From a virus, in UHGV virus genome UHGV-1375844: a stretch of 64,000 nucleotides of DNA, one strand, 5' to 3'. The translations under genes were made by a program, and so were the position numbers. A model generated the notes under the pieces. That model saw only the letters and a program-made list of their open reading frames with translations. It did no database searches and was not told the origin of the DNA. This document shows, in pieces, positions 30,569 to 34,225 of this stretch. How positions within the stretch are numbered: position 1 is the stretch's first letter; every line of letters begins with the position of its first letter.

Positions 30569-31804
30569 TTAACCGAAGATCTTCTGAACCACTTCACGAG
30601 CCGCTTGTGCAGACGTTGAAGGAAGTTTGTTGATGAATGACTTCTCGATGCCTGCAGCGAAATCGCCGCGCATCATTCCGATCCTTGCTGAAAGCAATAG
30701 CTCGCGAGGGCCTATTGGCTGGCTGATCAGGTGCTGTTCGTAACCGTCTCTGACGAGATTTGCGAATTTCACCATTTTTTCTGCGTATTCCCGGATAATC
30801 CCGGCTTCAACCAACATATTGACCTCTGCCTTAACGCTCATGTATTTGACGTTCGATACGATGCCAAAGCGTGAGAAGTTCGCGGCGTTCTGAATGTTCG
30901 TACCCTGGTACAGTCCTGTTTCGTCACCAGATCCGTTGGTGTTGCCAGTGCCGATAAATGCAAAACGCTCGTGAGGAGTGATTCGGCGCCAGTCCGGAGT
31001 TGCCTCTTTGATGACCAAAGGCTCACCTTCCAGCACAGGCTGGTAAACCCCGAGAATCTGAGGAAATGCGAAGTCATATTCATCGGCCAGATAAACCCAA
31101 CCGTTTTTCATAGCAAGTGCCAAAAGCCCAGGCTCAAAGTAGGTGGAGCCGTCACGGGCAAGGATCTGGCCAGTAACATGTGCCTCTTCCATCGACGCTG
31201 TGTGCTGGGCGCGAATCAATGGACGGTTTAGCAAAGCGCATAGTTGGGTCGGCAGAGAAGATTTGCCTGTGCCGGCGTGTCCCCAGAGATAACCCGGGAT
31301 TCCGATCTCTAACATCATGAAGATGTCTTTAATCAGATCGAAATCCCCATAGACGTAACCTTTCTTCGCTTCTGGTACGAACTCTGGATATGGGGAATTA
31401 ACATTCACAGTCACCTGCAGCGGTTTACCACGAGGCGTACCCAACTCTTTAAGCGTTACGCCAAGCAGCTCGTGCGCGGCAACCAGTTCAGTTTTGTATT
31501 CAACCGTACCTACGTACCCAGGGTGGGTGCTGATTTCCGCTACCTTTCCTTCGCCTGTATGTTTCTCGGCACGCTTCTCTTTCAGTTTGGCCAGCGCGGT
31601 TCGTGAAAGAGTTGGCTCTTCAGGAAACTCGGCGGTGTACATTTTCACCACCTCGTCAACATCGAGACCTTTTGCCGACTCTGGTATGCCTTCACAGCGA
31701 CCCATCGAAATATGTGACTTAAGGTGGTGAAAAGATTTGCCACACCACTTGCAGATAATGGTTTCCGGCAAAAGCTCTTCTTGCTGTAGTGCAGTAGCGG
31801 TCAT
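30569..31804 (-). CDS. CobS-like / MoxR-family AAA+ ATPase
   Basis: Walker A GHAGTGKSSL; N-terminal Cys/His cluster CKWCGKSFHHLKSH; paired with a vWA protein. Confidence 0.7.
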   Translation of the reverse strand: MTATALQQEELLPETIICKWCGKSFHHLKSHISMGRCEGIPESAKGLDVDEVVKMYTAEFPEEPTLSRTALAKLKEKRAEKHTGEGKVAEISTHPGYVGTVEYKTELVAAHELLGVTLKELGTPRGKPLQVTVNVNSPYPEFVPEAKKGYVYGDFDLIKDIFMMLEIGIPGYLWGHAGTGKSSLPTQLCALLNRPLIRAQHTASMEEAHVTGQILARDGSTYFEPGLLALAMKNGWVYLADEYDFAFPQILGVYQPVLEGEPLVIKEATPDWRRITPHERFAFIGTGNTNGSGDETGLYQGTNIQNAANFSRFGIVSNVKYMSVKAEVNMLVEAGIIREYAEKMVKFANLVRDGYEQHLISQPIGPRELLLSARIGMMRGDFAAGIEKSFINKLPSTSAQAAREVVQKIFG

Positions 31805-31863
31805 GTGTTTTTCCTTACTCGTTTGTCGTTCGTGCGTATATCTTATAGAAATATATCAGGCTG

Positions 31864-31887
31864 TATAGTAAGTAGTTACTTAATTTT
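31864..31887. promoter_or_regulatory. dispersed palindromic motif copy (TATAGTAAGTAGTTACTTAATTTT)
   Basis: Upstream of the CobS-like gene. Confidence 0.45.
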
Positions 31888-31900
31888 AAGGGTAAACGAT

Positions 31901-34225
31901 TTACCCAAGAATGATACGAGATAGCTCAGTAACCACAGACGGGCCTAACTCCTCCACACTGTTAACAAGGGCGTAGTTTTTGTAATAGCGTTTCGGGGCA
32001 TTGGTCAAAATGCCTATCGCCATGAGATCAATATCACTAAGGTGTTCAATCTCTTTGGCTACAGTGCGCAGGTGCTCGCTGAACCCATCTCCGGCAGCAC
32101 ATGGCGCACCGTCACTCATGACCAGCATAATTTTTTTGTCTTCTGTTCGTCCCGAAAAGAGTGAGGCCAGTTGCGCGATACTCTCCCCATCAACGTTGTT
32201 GAGTAACGGGAACGTTTCTCCGACGCAACCCATACGAGCGCGGATCTCTGGTGAGTTAGCTTTCTCGTTCCAGTTTTTGATGATAGGCAACATCAGGGCT
32301 TCAAAACGCGAAAAACCACGTTTCGACATTGTTCCATGATCAGGGGCGCCGAATGTGGTAAAGCCGGTGATGATATTCGGTACGTTAATACGATCGAGTG
32401 CATCAGCGATTGTGTAGGCACTGGCGAGTGCCAGATGAATCTTTCTGCCGCCCATTGAACCTGACAAATCGATTACCTGCTGCACACAGGCGTTAACTGC
32501 CTTGTGATCTTCTTTCCGTCGAAATACGCGATCATCCTTCATTGCCAGACGATAAAGACTTGAGCCATGAACACGCCCTCGACGTTGGCCAGGGACAAAC
32601 TGCACACGATTACGACTGGCGATCGCCCGTTCCAAATCTTTGGCCAGGGTTGAAGACACTCCGGCTGAAAGGTGTTCTTCAACCTGCAATTCAAACAGTT
32701 TTCGTCCCTCTGGAACCATACGATAGCGATCAACAGGAGAGTGCATAGGGATTGCGCCAAAAACCTTTTTGGCCCGCTTGATATGCTCTTCCGCCTCGTC
32801 AATTGGGCCGATGAAATCGTAAGAGCGGTCATACGGACGGTAATCAGAAAGAGAGCCGCTCATCAGCTCTTTGCTGATGGTTTCCGACAGCGCATCCTCA
32901 GTCATTTCATCGGTACCGTCTTCTATTTCATCAAGCGCCTTCAGTGCATCTTCCAGCGTCATTCCGTCTGTTTCTGCAACGAAGCCTGTGTCACCATCAG
33001 GCGTCTCTTCTGTACCCTCGTCCTTTTCGCTCCCGTAGCTCTCTTCATCTTCTTCGCCGGGCACCCCATCGCCATCGCCAGCTCCACCATGTTCGGCAGT
33101 GTCATCTTCTCCTGACCCATAACCATCGGAATCATCGGCGTCATCTTGAATGCCGTCACCAGGGGCCGGAGACCCATCGCCCTCTGAGCCAGAACCTTCT
33201 TCATTTGCAGAATCCGGTGGTGTGGTGCTGCCGTCTTCGTCGGTATCTGGGTGTTCTCCGTGTTCTTCTTTACCTGTTTCTGAAGAATCATTACTTGTAT
33301 CACTTATGTCTTTATCGTCAGTAGGTAAGTCCTTATCTAATAAATCAGGCGAATCAGAATCACCAGAATCGCGATCTTTGGCTTCTTCTTCTTTGTCTCC
33401 GCCTTCTTCTTTCCGCCCTGGTGTGGCTTCTTCACGGCTGGGTTTTTCTGGCGCTTCAGGTTTATCTCCAGACTCATCATCGCGCTTGGAGGGCTTCTTT
33501 GCAGAAGATTTCATTTCAGGAAGTTTACCTTCTGGTTTTTCCTTCATGTCTTTCATGATCTGCGCAATAGCCGCGGCAACTTTGACGCAGTCTTCAGTAC
33601 TCGACATGTTGCGAACGGCAGCGTCGATACCGTGTTCTTTAAGCAGGGCGACGGGTTTTGAGATGTAATGCCAGTTATCTTCCATAAACTCGACGAAAGG
33701 GCTTTGGCCATCCCAGGCTCTGACTACAGGGCACAGGAAAAACTTCAGAAACAGATCTCGCTGATCCCCGCGACAGATAGATACTGCCTCGACTACTTTC
33801 GTCTTAAAGTATTTGTCGATAATGAGGTTTTGGGTTGCCAGAAGGTTACGACGAGTCCCATTAAAAACCTGCCCCATCCTGCGTTCGATAAAGACATCTT
33901 CCAGGGCATTCCAGAGACCTGTAGATGGCGCTTTTCCTTTCTCGCGCATCTTCATGGCGACCTTCGGATCAGTAAAAAGGATATGGGCTACCTCATGGTC
34001 TAGAAAGCCGCGTACCGCGTTCATCAGCGTAGGTGTTGCATCATCAGGTATGGATGGTATGTTGACCAACACCGGCTCTCCACGCTTGTTGTAGCGTACA
34101 AATGCTTCATTACCACGCTCCGCTACAGGGATGCTTTTTCCGGAAAGCATGGCGACTACTCGTTTAACGCAATCGCGAAAGTCCTGTACCTCTTTCAGTA
34201 CAGCTTTAGAAGATGCTTTAGACAT
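31901..34225 (-). CDS. CobT-like von Willebrand factor A-domain protein with long acidic low-complexity region
   Basis: MIDAS motif VIDLSGSMGG; ~200 aa D/E/G/S-rich stretch; start at internal ATG with AAGGAAA RBS. Confidence 0.7.
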   Translation of the reverse strand: MSKASSKAVLKEVQDFRDCVKRVVAMLSGKSIPVAERGNEAFVRYNKRGEPVLVNIPSIPDDATPTLMNAVRGFLDHEVAHILFTDPKVAMKMREKGKAPSTGLWNALEDVFIERRMGQVFNGTRRNLLATQNLIIDKYFKTKVVEAVSICRGDQRDLFLKFFLCPVVRAWDGQSPFVEFMEDNWHYISKPVALLKEHGIDAAVRNMSSTEDCVKVAAAIAQIMKDMKEKPEGKLPEMKSSAKKPSKRDDESGDKPEAPEKPSREEATPGRKEEGGDKEEEAKDRDSGDSDSPDLLDKDLPTDDKDISDTSNDSSETGKEEHGEHPDTDEDGSTTPPDSANEEGSGSEGDGSPAPGDGIQDDADDSDGYGSGEDDTAEHGGAGDGDGVPGEEDEESYGSEKDEGTEETPDGDTGFVAETDGMTLEDALKALDEIEDGTDEMTEDALSETISKELMSGSLSDYRPYDRSYDFIGPIDEAEEHIKRAKKVFGAIPMHSPVDRYRMVPEGRKLFELQVEEHLSAGVSSTLAKDLERAIASRNRVQFVPGQRRGRVHGSSLYRLAMKDDRVFRRKEDHKAVNACVQQVIDLSGSMGGRKIHLALASAYTIADALDRINVPNIITGFTTFGAPDHGTMSKRGFSRFEALMLPIIKNWNEKANSPEIRARMGCVGETFPLLNNVDGESIAQLASLFSGRTEDKKIMLVMSDGAPCAAGDGFSEHLRTVAKEIEHLSDIDLMAIGILTNAPKRYYKNYALVNSVEELGPSVVTELSRIILG

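What the first reader, a model, noticed from the sequence alone, without database searches (positions are those of the whole stretch)
30569..34225. CobS-like AAA+ ATPase and CobT-like vWA protein pair with giant acidic tract
A MoxR/CobS-type ATPase with an N-terminal Cys/His cluster is followed by a vWA (MIDAS) protein carrying ~200 residues of D/E/G/S-rich low complexity. The role of such AAA+/vWA pairs in phages is unresolved; chaperone-like remodelling or a defence-related function are both possible.
Basis: partly seen in the sequence, partly recalled or inferred. Interest (0 to 1): 0.5.

Follow-up and report, generated by a model that had tools for sequence, protein, structure and literature searches.

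The report
Phage CobT–CobS motor–adaptor gene pair
Two adjacent genes of a Salmonella phage-plasmid encode an ATP-driven ring motor and its adaptor; they resemble two subunits of the vitamin-B12 cobalt chelatase but almost certainly do another, unproven job, probably remodelling or cutting a protein during phage DNA replication, and the pair belongs to a widely annotated phage gene family rather than being a new discovery.

Summary
Observation confirmed. On the minus strand a 774-aa CobT-like gene (34225..31901) precedes a 411-aa CobS-like AAA+ gene (31804..30569). The window is an SSU5/pHCM2-type Salmonella phage-plasmid (99.8% identical to pSA20094620.2). 725 plasmids carry the pair, and the viral cobT-cobS cluster is already described.

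It is very unlikely to act as a cobaltochelatase here:
- Scores lie far below the NCBIfam equivalog cut-offs.
- No CobN is encoded.
- Salmonella uses CbiK and E. coli makes no B12.
- The element's RNR is class I.

Anatomy:
- CobS has a Ros/MucR-like zinc finger plus a MoxR-class AAA+ module with all catalytic residues.
- CobT has a zincin-like N-domain with a conserved HExxH (123/125 viral relatives; 0/84 cellular CobT).
- CobT also has a 231-aa acidic disordered tether, a shaft segment, and a vWA domain with intact MIDAS.

In this clade cobT-cobS, a 4-Cys protein and dnaE are always linked. T4-like and ICP2-like phages also put the pair beside replisome genes.

Best model: a DNA-tethered, ATP-driven client-remodelling machine, probably proteolytic, that serves phage replication. 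The client is unknown. A defence role is unsupported (no PADLOC hits). This is a known family with unresolved function; SSU5 offers a tractable test system.

The parts
31901..34225 (-). cobT-like gene, 774 aa: adaptor protein made of a zincin-like N-domain, an acidic tether, a shaft and a vWA domain
   Evidence: ORF and RBS. Pfam CobT_C 3.6e-104 and CobT 2.3e-32. PHROG 1576 E=0. Brucella CobT 9uka E=3e-17 over aa 521-769.
33539..34225 (-). CobT N-terminal domain (aa 1-229): helix, three-stranded sheet, then nine helices; zincin/M48-like fold
33983..33997 (-). HEVAH (aa 77-81), the zincin HExxH motif
   Evidence: H77, E78, V79 and H81 are invariant in 125 aligned relatives. The motif is present in 56/57 complete viral N-domains and 123/125 full-length cluster representatives. 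It is absent from 84/84 cellular CobT.
33884..33910 (-). NALEDVFIE (aa 106-114) on the next helix; candidate third metal ligand (E109 or E114)
   Evidence: D110 is invariant; N106, E109 and E114 are >=90% conserved. The segment lies in helix 102-120 of the model. The two Glu are also kept in cellular CobT.
32846..33538 (-). Acidic low-complexity tether (aa 230-460)
   Evidence: D+E 34%, net charge -58. pLDDT collapses from aa 233, at the end of the modelled segment. dN/dS 0.20 with indels versus SSU5. DNA similarity to other SSU5-like elements stops here. The corresponding ~90-aa linker is disordered in Brucella CobT.
32495..32611 (-). Segment equivalent to the CobT 'shaft' (aa 539-577, ...GQRRGRVHGSSLYRLAMKDDRVFRRKEDHKAV)
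   Evidence: It aligns with Brucella CobT Q373-R413, the segment that inserts into the CobS pore. R548, G550, L557 and D564 are invariant in 4 divergent phage CobT.
31904..32494 (-). vWA domain (aa 578-774) with MIDAS D586/S588/S590, N676/D679 and D705
   Evidence: Pfam CobT_C. Alignment to Brucella MIDAS residues D422/S424/S426/N518/D546. D.SGSM is present in 122/125 relatives.
30569..31804 (-). cobS-like gene, 411 aa: MoxR-class AAA+ motor with an N-terminal extension
   Evidence: AF2 model pLDDT 87.3. Best Foldseek hits are CbbQ and NorQ, TM 0.83-0.86 normalised to the target.
31595..31765 (-). Ros/MucR-like zinc finger and following helices (aa 14-70): C18-x2-C21-x9-H31-x5-C37, then Y56..FP..P.LS
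   Evidence: In 121 clade members C18 and H26 are invariant, C21 occurs in 114/121 and H31 in 119/121. Pfam ROS_MUCR hits 8/19 clade members, best 8e-5, but not the window copy. The clade profile's top PDB hit is Ros 2JSP, E=5.5e-4. Model pLDDT >90 for aa 11-80.
30572..31309 (-). AAA+ module (aa 166-411): Walker A 175-182, Walker B D241/E242, sensor-1 N288, Arg finger R312, sensor-2 R367
   Evidence: All five positions are invariant across viral and cellular CobS. They map to Brucella G71-S78, D141/E142, N186, R210 and R271.
30363..30566 (-). 67-aa 4-Cys ORF between cobS and dnaE; conserved partner gene of the clade, truncated here
   Evidence: PHROG 6337 E=3.9e-44. Homologous to the N-terminus of a 170-235 aa protein found at this position in the dnaE-linked loci. 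No Pfam family.
26870..30388 (-). dnaE (Pol III alpha, 1172 aa), invariably linked downstream gene
   Evidence: dnaE lies 0-2.5 kb downstream of cobS in all 24 loci of the clade and in Pseudomonas phage Nican01.

Best explanation
The pair is the SSU5-lineage copy of the widespread viral cobT-cobS module. In this host it does not insert cobalt.

Proposed mechanism:
- CobS forms a MoxR-class AAA+ ring (inferred from Brucella CobS, NorQ and CbbQ).
- CobT is its adaptor. A conserved shaft segment is gripped in the ring pore, a long acidic disordered tether gives reach, and the vWA/MIDAS site captures a client protein.
- The N-terminal zincin domain, catalytically intact in viruses but dead in cellular CobT, sits opposite the MIDAS. 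That is where CobN sits in the chelatase. It cleaves or processes the captured client.
- In this clade CobS also carries a Ros/MucR-type zinc finger that probably tethers the machine to DNA.
- The genes are embedded in, and probably expressed with, the phage replication module (ligase ... cobT-cobS-4-Cys protein-dnaE).

I therefore infer that the client is a DNA-associated host or phage protein whose remodelling or removal helps phage DNA replication.

Shown: domain identities, motif conservation, synteny, and absence of CobN.
Inferred: ring/shaft mechanics, proteolysis, DNA tethering, and the replication-linked client.
For: Identity of the pair.

Not a chelatase:
- NCBIfam equivalog scores are 82 against cut-offs of 558/759.
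- No CobN-sized ORF lies in the window, and no CobN is annotated in the ~96 kb of the 106.6-kb twin plasmid that was inspected.
- Salmonella uses class II CbiK, and E. coli makes no B12.
- The element's own RNR is class I NrdAB.
- Despite this, dN/dS is 0.02-0.03, the same as dnaE.

Intact motor and adaptor:
- Walker A/B, sensor-1, Arg finger and sensor-2 are invariant.
- MIDAS and shaft residues are conserved.

Peptidase:
- HExxH, including the catalytic Glu, is invariant in 125/125 aligned relatives and present in 123/125 representatives.
- It is also kept in the distant CRP-810, Gordonia and ICP2-like phages.
- It occurs in 0/84 cellular CobT.
- The Brucella CobT_N crystal structure is M48C-like, and CobN contacts its beta-sheet and the MIDAS.

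Zinc finger.

Synteny:
- All 24 clade loci have dnaE 0-2.5 kb downstream, with the 4-Cys protein between in most. Nican01 shows the same arrangement.
- SSU5 has the pair between ligase and dnaE.
- 49 of 60 other loci, mainly T4-like marine phages, have the gp45 clamp and 40 have gp44 just downstream.
- ICP2-like phage JPW has primase downstream.

The general MoxR-vWA logic comes from PMC7159879.
Against: - There are no experimental data for any viral CobS or CobT.
- HExxH is lost in two members of the same clade, phages BUCTxx99 and Nican01, which keep everything else. Proteolysis is therefore dispensable there.
- The active-site geometry of the model was not inspected.
- The window's own zinc finger is a divergent C2HC variant with an insertion, and it fails Pfam ROS_MUCR.
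- Viral CobS of this clade lacks the C-terminal helix that docks CobT_N in Brucella. The architecture may differ.
- Replication-gene synteny could merely reflect early/middle-gene clustering. It is absent in Roseobacter phage CRP-810 and not evident in Gordonia phage Minos, whose neighbours are all hypothetical proteins.
- No client was identified.
Confidence: 0.5

Rival explanations
1. Metallochaperone: the pair loads a metal into a phage or host metalloenzyme (for example the NrdB di-iron site or the DnaE PHP domain). NorQ/NorD does this for NorB iron and CoxD/CoxE for the CO-dehydrogenase cluster. On this reading the HExxH/Glu site binds the metal rather than cutting peptides.
For: The closest characterised relatives are metal-insertion machines: CobST and NorQ, a top fold hit (discussion). 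NrdAB and dnaE are on the same element, and dnaE is always adjacent. The two downstream Glu are kept even in cellular CobT.
Against: The general-base Glu of HExxH is invariant in 125/125 relatives. Simple metal binding would not require that. T4-like phages with the pair use a family-B polymerase without a PHP domain (own knowledge). No specific target is indicated.
Confidence: 0.15
2. Host-takeover or counter-defence protease-unfoldase: the machine captures and destroys a host protein unrelated to replication, such as a defence factor or a regulator.
Against: The module is a conserved, near-core gene pair in phages of cyanobacteria, SAR11, enterobacteria, rhizobia, vibrios and actinobacteria. 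That argues for a universal target rather than a host-specific one. Purifying selection is very strong, which is unlike typical arms-race genes. The relation of the Bas54 gene to CobS was not tested.
Confidence: 0.15
3. Virion-assembly chaperone/protease, as proposed for the MoxR-vWA-metallopeptidase pair of group 2.2 jumbo phages and, by analogy, the ATV tail-development MoxR/vWA proteins.
For: Iyer et al. 2021 (PMC7824862) recognised the same architecture and proposed this role.
Against: In the window and in SSU5 the pair lies in the replication module, more than 20 kb from the head and tail genes. In T4-like phages it sits next to the clamp and clamp loader. The Ros/MucR finger points to DNA.
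Confidence: 0.1
4. Genuine cobaltochelatase subunits that hijack a host CobN to boost cobalamin. This is the auxiliary-metabolic-gene reading (Liu et al. 2021).
For: Sequence homology to CobS and CobT. The hypothesis is stated in PMC8651126.
Against: No CobN is on the element. Salmonella uses CbiK and E. coli makes no B12. The phage RNR is B12-independent. Equivalog thresholds are missed roughly 7- to 9-fold. The pair differs from cellular CobT in HExxH and, in this clade, in gene order. SAR11 and V. cholerae phages also carry the pair, and to my knowledge those hosts lack de novo B12 synthesis.
Confidence: 0.04
5. An anti-phage defence system carried by the phage-plasmid.
For: MoxR-vWA ternary conflict systems exist in bacteria (PMC7159879).
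Against: There are no PADLOC matches. No third VMAP or effector gene is present. The pair is conserved in strictly lytic phages. It is located in the replication operon.
Confidence: 0.03

Closest known systems
Viral cobT-cobS cluster (PHROG 1576 + PHROG 249), e.g. SSU5 gp049/gp050, cyanophage 'peptidase' + CobS, ICP2 CobT/CobS
   Same: Direct membership. CobS is 94% identical to SSU5, and the PHROG matches are at E=0 and 6.7e-105. It shares the three-domain CobT, the HExxH and the acidic linker.
   Different: Nothing essential differs. The SSU5 group has an insertion in the zinc finger (C37) and a 4-Cys neighbour truncated to 67 aa. T4-like members lack the zinc finger.
Aerobic cobaltochelatase motor CobS/CobT (Brucella melitensis CobSTN cryo-EM; P. 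denitrificans)
   Same: AAA+ core with identical catalytic residues. The CobT plan is also shared: M48-like N-domain, disordered acidic linker, shaft, and vWA/MIDAS.
   Different: - No CobN partner.
- HExxH is intact here but absent in 84/84 cellular CobT.
- Gene order is cobT then cobS, against cobS then cobT in cellular loci.
- CobS has a ~165-aa N-terminal extension with a zinc finger and lacks the C-terminal docking helix.
- The linker is 231 aa against ~90 aa.
- AAA+ identity is only ~30%, and the viral sequences form a separate clade.
NorQ/NorD, CbbQ/CbbO, RavA/ViaA (MoxR AAA+ with vWA adaptor)
   Same: Best structural neighbours of the CobS model. They share the motor-adaptor-client logic, with MIDAS capturing the client.
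   Different: Those adaptors have no peptidase domain. Their clients are known (NorB, Rubisco, Frd/Nuo). They have no DNA-binding finger.
MoxR-vWA pair with N-terminal metallopeptidase of group 2.2 jumbo phages (Iyer et al. 2021)
   Same: The same domain architecture was recognised.
   Different: It was described only in jumbo phages and assigned to virion assembly. Here it sits in a ~107-kb phage-plasmid inside the replication module. Sequence identity to those proteins was not tested.
Ros/MucR prokaryotic C2H2 zinc-finger DNA-binding proteins (Ros87, PDB 2JSP)
   Same: The C-x2-C-x9-H-x4-H spacing and the following 'T.eeY' helix. Pfam ROS_MUCR hits 8/19 clade members.
   Different: Here the finger is fused to an AAA+ ATPase. 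The window copy replaces the last His with Cys inside a 17-aa insertion. DNA binding is untested.
M48/M56/WLM-type zincins (Ste24, HtpX, BepA, BlaR1, Wss1/Spartan)
   Different: The domain is soluble, fused to a vWA domain, and served by a separate AAA+ motor. Sequence similarity is undetectable, and activity is unproven.

Membership tests
Class I (aerobic) cobaltochelatase CobNST, subunits CobS/CobT | CobS: MoxR-type AAA+ with Walker A/B, sensor-1, Arg finger and sensor-2 | tested here: met
   G175-S182, D241/E242, N288, R312 and R367 are invariant with cellular CobS.
Class I (aerobic) cobaltochelatase CobNST, subunits CobS/CobT | Scores above the curated equivalog cut-offs (TIGR01650 CobS, TIGR01651 CobT) | tested here: not met
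   82.0 bits against a cut-off of 558.55, and 82.2 bits against 759.05.
Class I (aerobic) cobaltochelatase CobNST, subunits CobS/CobT | CobT C-terminal vWA with MIDAS, preceded by the pore-inserting shaft | tested here: met
   Alignment to Brucella CobT 355-616. D586/S588/S590/N676/D705 and shaft aa 539-577 are present.
Class I (aerobic) cobaltochelatase CobNST, subunits CobS/CobT | A CobN catalytic subunit available in the same genome or host | tested here: not met
   The only window ORF above 1000 aa other than the tail fibre is dnaE. No CobN is annotated in the inspected ~96 kb of the twin plasmid. The host chromosome was not searched here. According to the literature, Salmonella uses CbiK and E. 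coli has no pathway.
Class I (aerobic) cobaltochelatase CobNST, subunits CobS/CobT | CobT N-domain as in cellular enzymes (M48-like fold without the HExxH motif) and gene order cobS then cobT | tested here: not met
   The window has HEVAH and the order cobT then cobS. Cellular CobT: 0/84 with HExxH, and 75/80 with cobS then cobT.
Class I (aerobic) cobaltochelatase CobNST, subunits CobS/CobT | [quoted passage not shown] | not testable with these tools
   Needs biochemistry or genetics.
Viral cobT-cobS module (PHROG 1576 / PHROG 249) | Full-length profile matches to both PHROGs, with the genes adjacent on one strand | tested here: met
   E=0 (profile positions 1-728 of 729) and E=6.7e-105. The genes are separated by a 96-nt gap.
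Viral cobT-cobS module (PHROG 1576 / PHROG 249) | CobT with an HExxH N-domain, a long acidic linker and a vWA domain | tested here: met
MoxR-class AAA+ / vWA two-component remodellers | AAA_5/CbbQ-type fold, with an adjacent vWA partner that has an intact MIDAS | tested here: met
   Pfam AAA_5 matches. CbbQ_C matches 16/19 clade members. Foldseek gives CbbQ E=1.3e-14 and NorQ E=2.5e-14. MIDAS is intact.
MoxR-class AAA+ / vWA two-component remodellers | Hexameric ring that engages the adaptor in its pore | not testable with these tools
   Inferred from Brucella CobST. No multimer prediction was available.
Zincin (gluzincin, M48-like) metallopeptidases | HExxH on an alpha-helix | tested here: met
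   H77-E78-V-A-H81 lies in helix 65-84 and is invariant in 125 relatives.
Zincin (gluzincin, M48-like) metallopeptidases | Third metal ligand (Glu) on the following helix, and the zincin fold | tested here: inconclusive
Zincin (gluzincin, M48-like) metallopeptidases | Zinc-dependent peptide-bond hydrolysis | not testable with these tools
   Needs enzymology.
Ros/MucR zinc-finger family (PF05443) | C-x2-C-x9-H-x3-5-H zinc site followed by the conserved helix | tested here: inconclusive
   The clade consensus fits, and the clade profile's top PDB hit is Ros 2JSP at E=5.5e-4. Pfam hits 8/19 members but not the window copy. The window copy reads C18-x2-C21-x9-H31-x5-C37.
Known anti-phage defence systems (PADLOC-DB v2) | Match to any defence-system protein model | tested here: not met
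   No hit at E<=0.01 for CobS, CobT, orf67 or orf73.

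The most novel reading that the evidence does not exclude
Viral 'CobT-CobS' may not be a borrowed vitamin-B12 gene pair at all. It may be an ancient, DNA-tethered, AAA+-driven metalloprotease that removes or processes DNA-bound proteins for phage replisomes. Candidate targets are nucleoid silencers, replisome parts and DNA-protein adducts, in the manner of Spartan/Wss1 with p97.

On this reading, cellular cobaltochelatase CobT is a pseudo-peptidase descendant of that lineage. The 'cobS/cobT auxiliary metabolic gene' label on thousands of marine and enteric phage genomes would then be wrong.
Probability: 0.2. Interest if true: 0.75.

Novelty: already known. Interest (0 to 1): 0.42.

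Why it matters
cobS, with its upstream 'peptidase' (cobT), is a near-core gene pair of the ocean's most abundant myoviruses. It is routinely counted as a cobalamin auxiliary metabolic gene, yet its function has never been tested.

The SSU5-type phage-plasmids carry the same module in Salmonella, E. coli and Klebsiella. The cobalamin explanation cannot apply in these hosts, and genetics is easy there.

If the intact zincin motif, the DNA-binding finger and the fixed linkage to dnaE mean what they suggest, the module is a replication-associated protein-remodelling or proteolytic machine. Three things would follow:
- A large body of AMG annotation would need correcting.
- The origin of the CobT pseudo-peptidase domain seen in the new CobSTN structures would be explained.
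- Replication of clinically widespread phage-plasmids would gain a new conserved component.

Tried and rejected
- The first homologue search with the single N-domain returned almost only fragments of close relatives. A profile search was needed.
- The genome scan with the N-domain-only cellular alignment failed for lack of a conserved stretch. The repeat with full-length CobT returned 80 species, all Hyphomicrobiales, so the 'cellular CobT lacks HExxH' result rests on Alphaproteobacteria plus one Betaproteobacterium.
- Tandem-repeat origin of the acidic tract is rejected.
- The promoter/terminator scan was uninformative. Counts were at or below shuffled expectation, and there was no terminator between cobT, cobS and dnaE beyond chance-level hits.
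- Pfam ROS_MUCR does not hit the window's own finger.
- 'T->S order in all viruses' is rejected. Roseobacter phage CRP-810 and Gordonia phages have the ATPase first.
- 'HExxH universal in viruses' is rejected. It is lost in phages BUCTxx99 and Nican01.
- Defence membership is rejected.
- Literature searches found no functional study of viral CobS/CobT and no report of a MucR finger on a phage CobS.
- The relation of the Bas54 anti-defence MoxR gene to CobS was not examined.
- The hhalign link between viral and cellular N-domains is only moderate: probability 59%, E=9e-5.

Full report
**What is there.** The window is an SSU5/pHCM2-type phage-plasmid.
- Bases 30300-34600 are 99.8% identical to Salmonella enterica plasmid pSA20094620.2 (106.6 kb, IncFIB) and ~82% identical to pHCM2 and phage SSU5.
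- 725 plasmids of Klebsiella, Escherichia, Enterobacter, Yersinia, Salmonella, Citrobacter and Cronobacter carry homologues.
- Both genes of the finding are on the minus strand.
- The CobT-like gene starts at the ATG at 34225 (RBS AAGGA), ends at 31901 and encodes 774 aa.
- The CobS-like gene follows 96 nt downstream (31804..30569, 411 aa). Next come a 67-aa ORF (30566..30363) and dnaE (30388..26870).
In the direction of transcription, however, the vWA protein precedes the ATPase.

**Domain assignments.**
- CobS-like: Pfam AAA_5 (4.6e-15) and PHROG 249 'porphyrin biosynthesis' (6.7e-105). The best solved relative is Brucella melitensis CobS (E=9e-25, query residues 172-411 only).
- An AF2 model (pLDDT 87.3) has CbbQ and NorQ as nearest folds.
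- Walker A, Walker B, sensor-1, Arg finger and sensor-2 are invariant with cellular CobS.
- CobT-like: Pfam CobT_C (3.6e-104), Pfam CobT (2.3e-32) and PHROG 1576 (E=0). Brucella CobT matches at E=3e-17 over residues 521-769.
- The MIDAS residues are present, as is the segment equivalent to the Brucella 'shaft' that enters the CobS pore.
- Residues 230-460 form the acidic tract: 34% D+E, net charge -58, 10% hydrophobic, no DNA repeats.

**It is not a cobaltochelatase here.**
- NCBIfam's CobS and CobT equivalog models score 82 bits against cut-offs of 558 and 759.
- The catalytic subunit CobN is absent from the window. None is annotated in the ~96 kb of the twin plasmid that I inspected.
- Salmonella inserts cobalt with the class II enzyme CbiK, and E. 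coli does not make B12 (PMC7689651). The host chromosome itself was not searched.
- The element's own ribonucleotide reductase is class I NrdA/NrdB. The usual rationale, 'B12 for a class II RNR', is therefore absent.
- The genes are nevertheless as constrained as dnaE. dN/dS versus SSU5 is 0.020 for cobS, 0.026 and 0.017 for the two folded CobT domains, and 0.028 for dnaE. The tract has 0.20, 61% identity and indels (dS is saturated, so the ratios are rough).

**A third domain: an intact zincin.**
- The first 229 residues of CobT fold confidently (pLDDT 90.2, pTM 0.86) into a helix, a three-stranded sheet and nine helices. This is the topology reported for the Brucella CobT N-domain, which its authors call peptidase-M48C-like (bioRxiv 10.64898/2026.07.21.739949).
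- The window protein carries HEVAH (aa 77-81) on one helix and N106-x2-E109-D110-x3-E114 on the next.
- H77, E78 and H81 are invariant in an alignment of 125 relatives.
- The motif is present in 56/57 complete viral N-domains from 80 IMG/VR loci and in 123/125 full-length representatives of the 1010 clusters found in 1.84 billion proteins.
- It is also present in the distant CobT-like proteins of Roseobacter phage CRP-810, Gordonia phage Minos and Vibrio phage JPW.
- None of 84 cellular CobT has it. The sample is 80 Hyphomicrobiales species plus Rhizobium, Pandoraea, Cereibacter and Sphingomonas replicons. At the aligned position they read RG-x-[GA]-D-[SA]-x-A-L, and Brucella reads GDSMAL.
- Iyer et al. 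2021 had already noted a metallopeptidase fused to the vWA partner of a MoxR ATPase in jumbo phages. Liu et al. [quoted passage not shown] The conservation pattern suggests that the peptidase label is not a mistake.
- Two phages of the window's own clade, BUCTxx99 and Nican01, have lost the motif.

**The Cys/His cluster is a Ros/MucR-type finger.**
- CobS of this clade has a ~165-aa N-terminal extension that cellular CobS and T4-like phage CobS lack.
- Its consensus is KI-x-C-x2-C-G-A-x-V-H-x-I-Q-x-H-L-x3-H-P-x2-T-x-E-x-Y-x3-F-P-x-A-P-L-L-S-E.
- In 121 sequences C18 and H26 are invariant, C21 occurs in 114 and H31 in 119.
- Pfam ROS_MUCR hits 8 of 19 clade members (best 8e-5). A profile of the segment finds Ros (PDB 2JSP) as its top PDB hit at E=5.5e-4.
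- The window copy is a variant, C18-x2-C21-x9-H31-x5-C37, with an SSU5-group insertion. On its own it does not reach Pfam significance.
- The model is confident for residues 11-80, and a disordered segment follows at residues 83-98.
- Ros/MucR fingers bind DNA (established knowledge; reviews listed).
- I found no paper describing this fusion.

**Context.**
- In all 24 loci of the clade, dnaE lies 0-2.5 kb downstream of cobS. The clade spans phages and phage-plasmids of Enterobacteriaceae, Stenotrophomonas, Rhizobium and metagenomes. A 4-Cys protein usually lies between cobS and dnaE, and sometimes an ECF-like sigma factor as well. Pseudomonas phage Nican01 shows the same arrangement.
- In SSU5 the pair sits between DNA ligase and dnaE, inside a block that also holds DnaB, primase, SSB, an exonuclease and a recombinase.
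- Of 60 other viral loci, mainly T4-like marine myoviruses, 49 have the gp45 sliding clamp about two genes downstream and 40 have gp44.
- The ICP2-like Vibrio phage JPW has primase downstream.
- The association is not universal. It is absent in CRP-810 and not evident in Gordonia phage Minos, whose neighbours are all hypothetical, and both place the ATPase first.
- In an NJ tree the dnaE-linked viral CobS, the other viral CobS and the cellular CobS form three clean groups. Median identities between groups are 24-31%.

**The acidic tract.**
- It is a family feature, not a peculiarity of this copy.
- Viral linkers measure 108-365 aa. The median is 243 aa in the dnaE-linked clade and 137 aa elsewhere, with D+E of 29-34%.
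- Cellular CobT have acidic stretches of ~50-135 aa. The ~90-aa Brucella linker is invisible in all structures.
- The window's 231 aa is typical for its clade.
- I read it as a flexible, charge-repelled tether between the ring-docked and client-binding parts, as proposed generally for MoxR-vWA systems. A DNA-mimic or metal-binding role is not excluded.

**Mechanism proposed.**
- By homology (inferred), six CobS form a ring. One CobT inserts its shaft into the pore, so that ATP hydrolysis moves the vWA domain.
- The MIDAS holds a client in the cleft between the vWA domain and the N-domain sheet. In Brucella that cleft holds CobN.
- In the viral protein the N-domain is a competent zincin, so the captured client is probably cut or trimmed.
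- The CobS finger would place the machine on DNA, and the fixed linkage to dnaE or to the clamp genes suggests a replication-related client.
- My confidence in each element is:

| Claim | Confidence |
|---|---|
| Identity as the viral CobT-CobS module | ~0.97 |
| Not a chelatase in this host | ~0.9 |
| Active peptidase | ~0.6 |
| DNA-tethered, replication-linked client | ~0.35 |

- The rivals are a metallochaperone, a host-takeover or counter-defence role, virion assembly, a true chelatase and a defence system. They are listed with evidence in the Rival explanations section.

**Novelty and verdict.**
- The gene pair, its family and even the peptidase fusion are already in databases and papers: SSU5 and pHCM2 annotations, PHROGs, Liu 2021 and Iyer 2021. 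I therefore file it as already known, with unresolved function.
- I could not find three points in the searched literature:
  1. The clean viral/cellular split in HExxH.
  2. The Ros/MucR finger on CobS.
  3. The invariant cobT-cobS-4-Cys-dnaE block.
- Together these turn a vague 'AMG' into a testable hypothesis in a tractable host.
- Interest is moderate.

Noticed in passing
window 30363-30566 (-): A 67-aa ORF with a 4-Cys motif (GCFGS-x13-C-x2-C-x5-C). It overlaps the dnaE start by 26 nt. It corresponds to the N-terminal domain of a 170-235 aa protein that sits between cobS and dnaE in related phages, and it is truncated to 64-69 aa in the SSU5 group (also L024). No Pfam family matches.
   Followed up: partly
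L002 7213-7920; L003 6930-7565: Related phages (Stenotrophomonas BUCTxx99, Rhizobium RHph_N1_10) carry an ECF-like sigma factor (Sigma70_r2) between cobS and the 4-Cys protein. The 4-Cys protein could be its partner or anti-sigma factor. The sigma factor is absent from the window.
   Followed up: no
window 34340-41814: Between tRNA-Asn (41814..41740) and cobT the window has ~7.5 kb where SSU5 has ~165 bp. The extra DNA carries PhoH, Gp49, a GrxA glutaredoxin, a 207-aa ORF, a tyrosine integrase (36293..35187), a divergent XRE regulator (34815-35195) and a 73-aa ORF (PHROG 2627). This looks like a variable or insertion hot spot next to the tRNA. PhoH and a glutaredoxin also accompany cobT/cobS in T4-like cyanophages.
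   Followed up: partly
window 41276-41362 and 41740-41814 (-): Two tRNA genes, tRNA-Ser(tga) and tRNA-Asn(gtt).
   Followed up: no
window 6258-15402 (-): A nucleotide-metabolism and repair block: thymidylate synthase (7394..6258), a MazG/PRA-PH-like protein (8483..7545), NrdB (9644..8502), class Ia NrdA with an ATP-cone (12089..9774), and an SbcC/SMC-like ATPase (15402..13486).
   Followed up: partly
Escherichia phage Cyrano OV696614, 44455-46839 (hit H7): The homologous pair is annotated 'cobalamin synthetase' and 'dimethylbenzimidazole phosphoribosyltransferase'. Those names belong to the unrelated Salmonella-nomenclature CobS/CobT enzymes, so this is a name-collision annotation error. A PeerJ paper likewise lists cyanophage cobS as 'cobalamin synthetase'.
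   Followed up: no
L005, L007, L008; L113, L137: In the three Alphaproteobacteria loci whose annotation was inspected, cellular cobS-cobT lies next to BolA and J-domain protein genes. The pair also occurs in Bartonella, which to my knowledge does not synthesise B12. Even cellular CobST may have a second, non-cobalamin role.
   Followed up: no
L002 3925-6000; L173 5762-7843: CobT of Stenotrophomonas phage BUCTxx99 (DREVST) and of Pseudomonas phage Nican01 has lost the HExxH motif. Both keep the MIDAS, and their CobS keeps the zinc finger; the shaft and acidic linker were checked only in BUCTxx99. These are natural 'peptidase-dead' variants that could be useful for comparison.
   Followed up: partly
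L174 1827-5645; L175 3209-6681: Roseobacter phage CRP-810 and Gordonia phage Minos have the ATPase first. Their ATPases are much longer (617 and 519 aa), and CRP-810 CobS has its own acidic stretch at aa 159-342. Their CobT-like proteins keep HExxH.
   Followed up: partly
window CobS C-terminus (30569-30580) versus L005-L008: Viral CobS of this clade ends at '...QKIFG'. It lacks the ~13-residue C-terminal helix that docks the CobT N-domain in the Brucella complex, so the N-domain may dock differently or be free.
   Followed up: no
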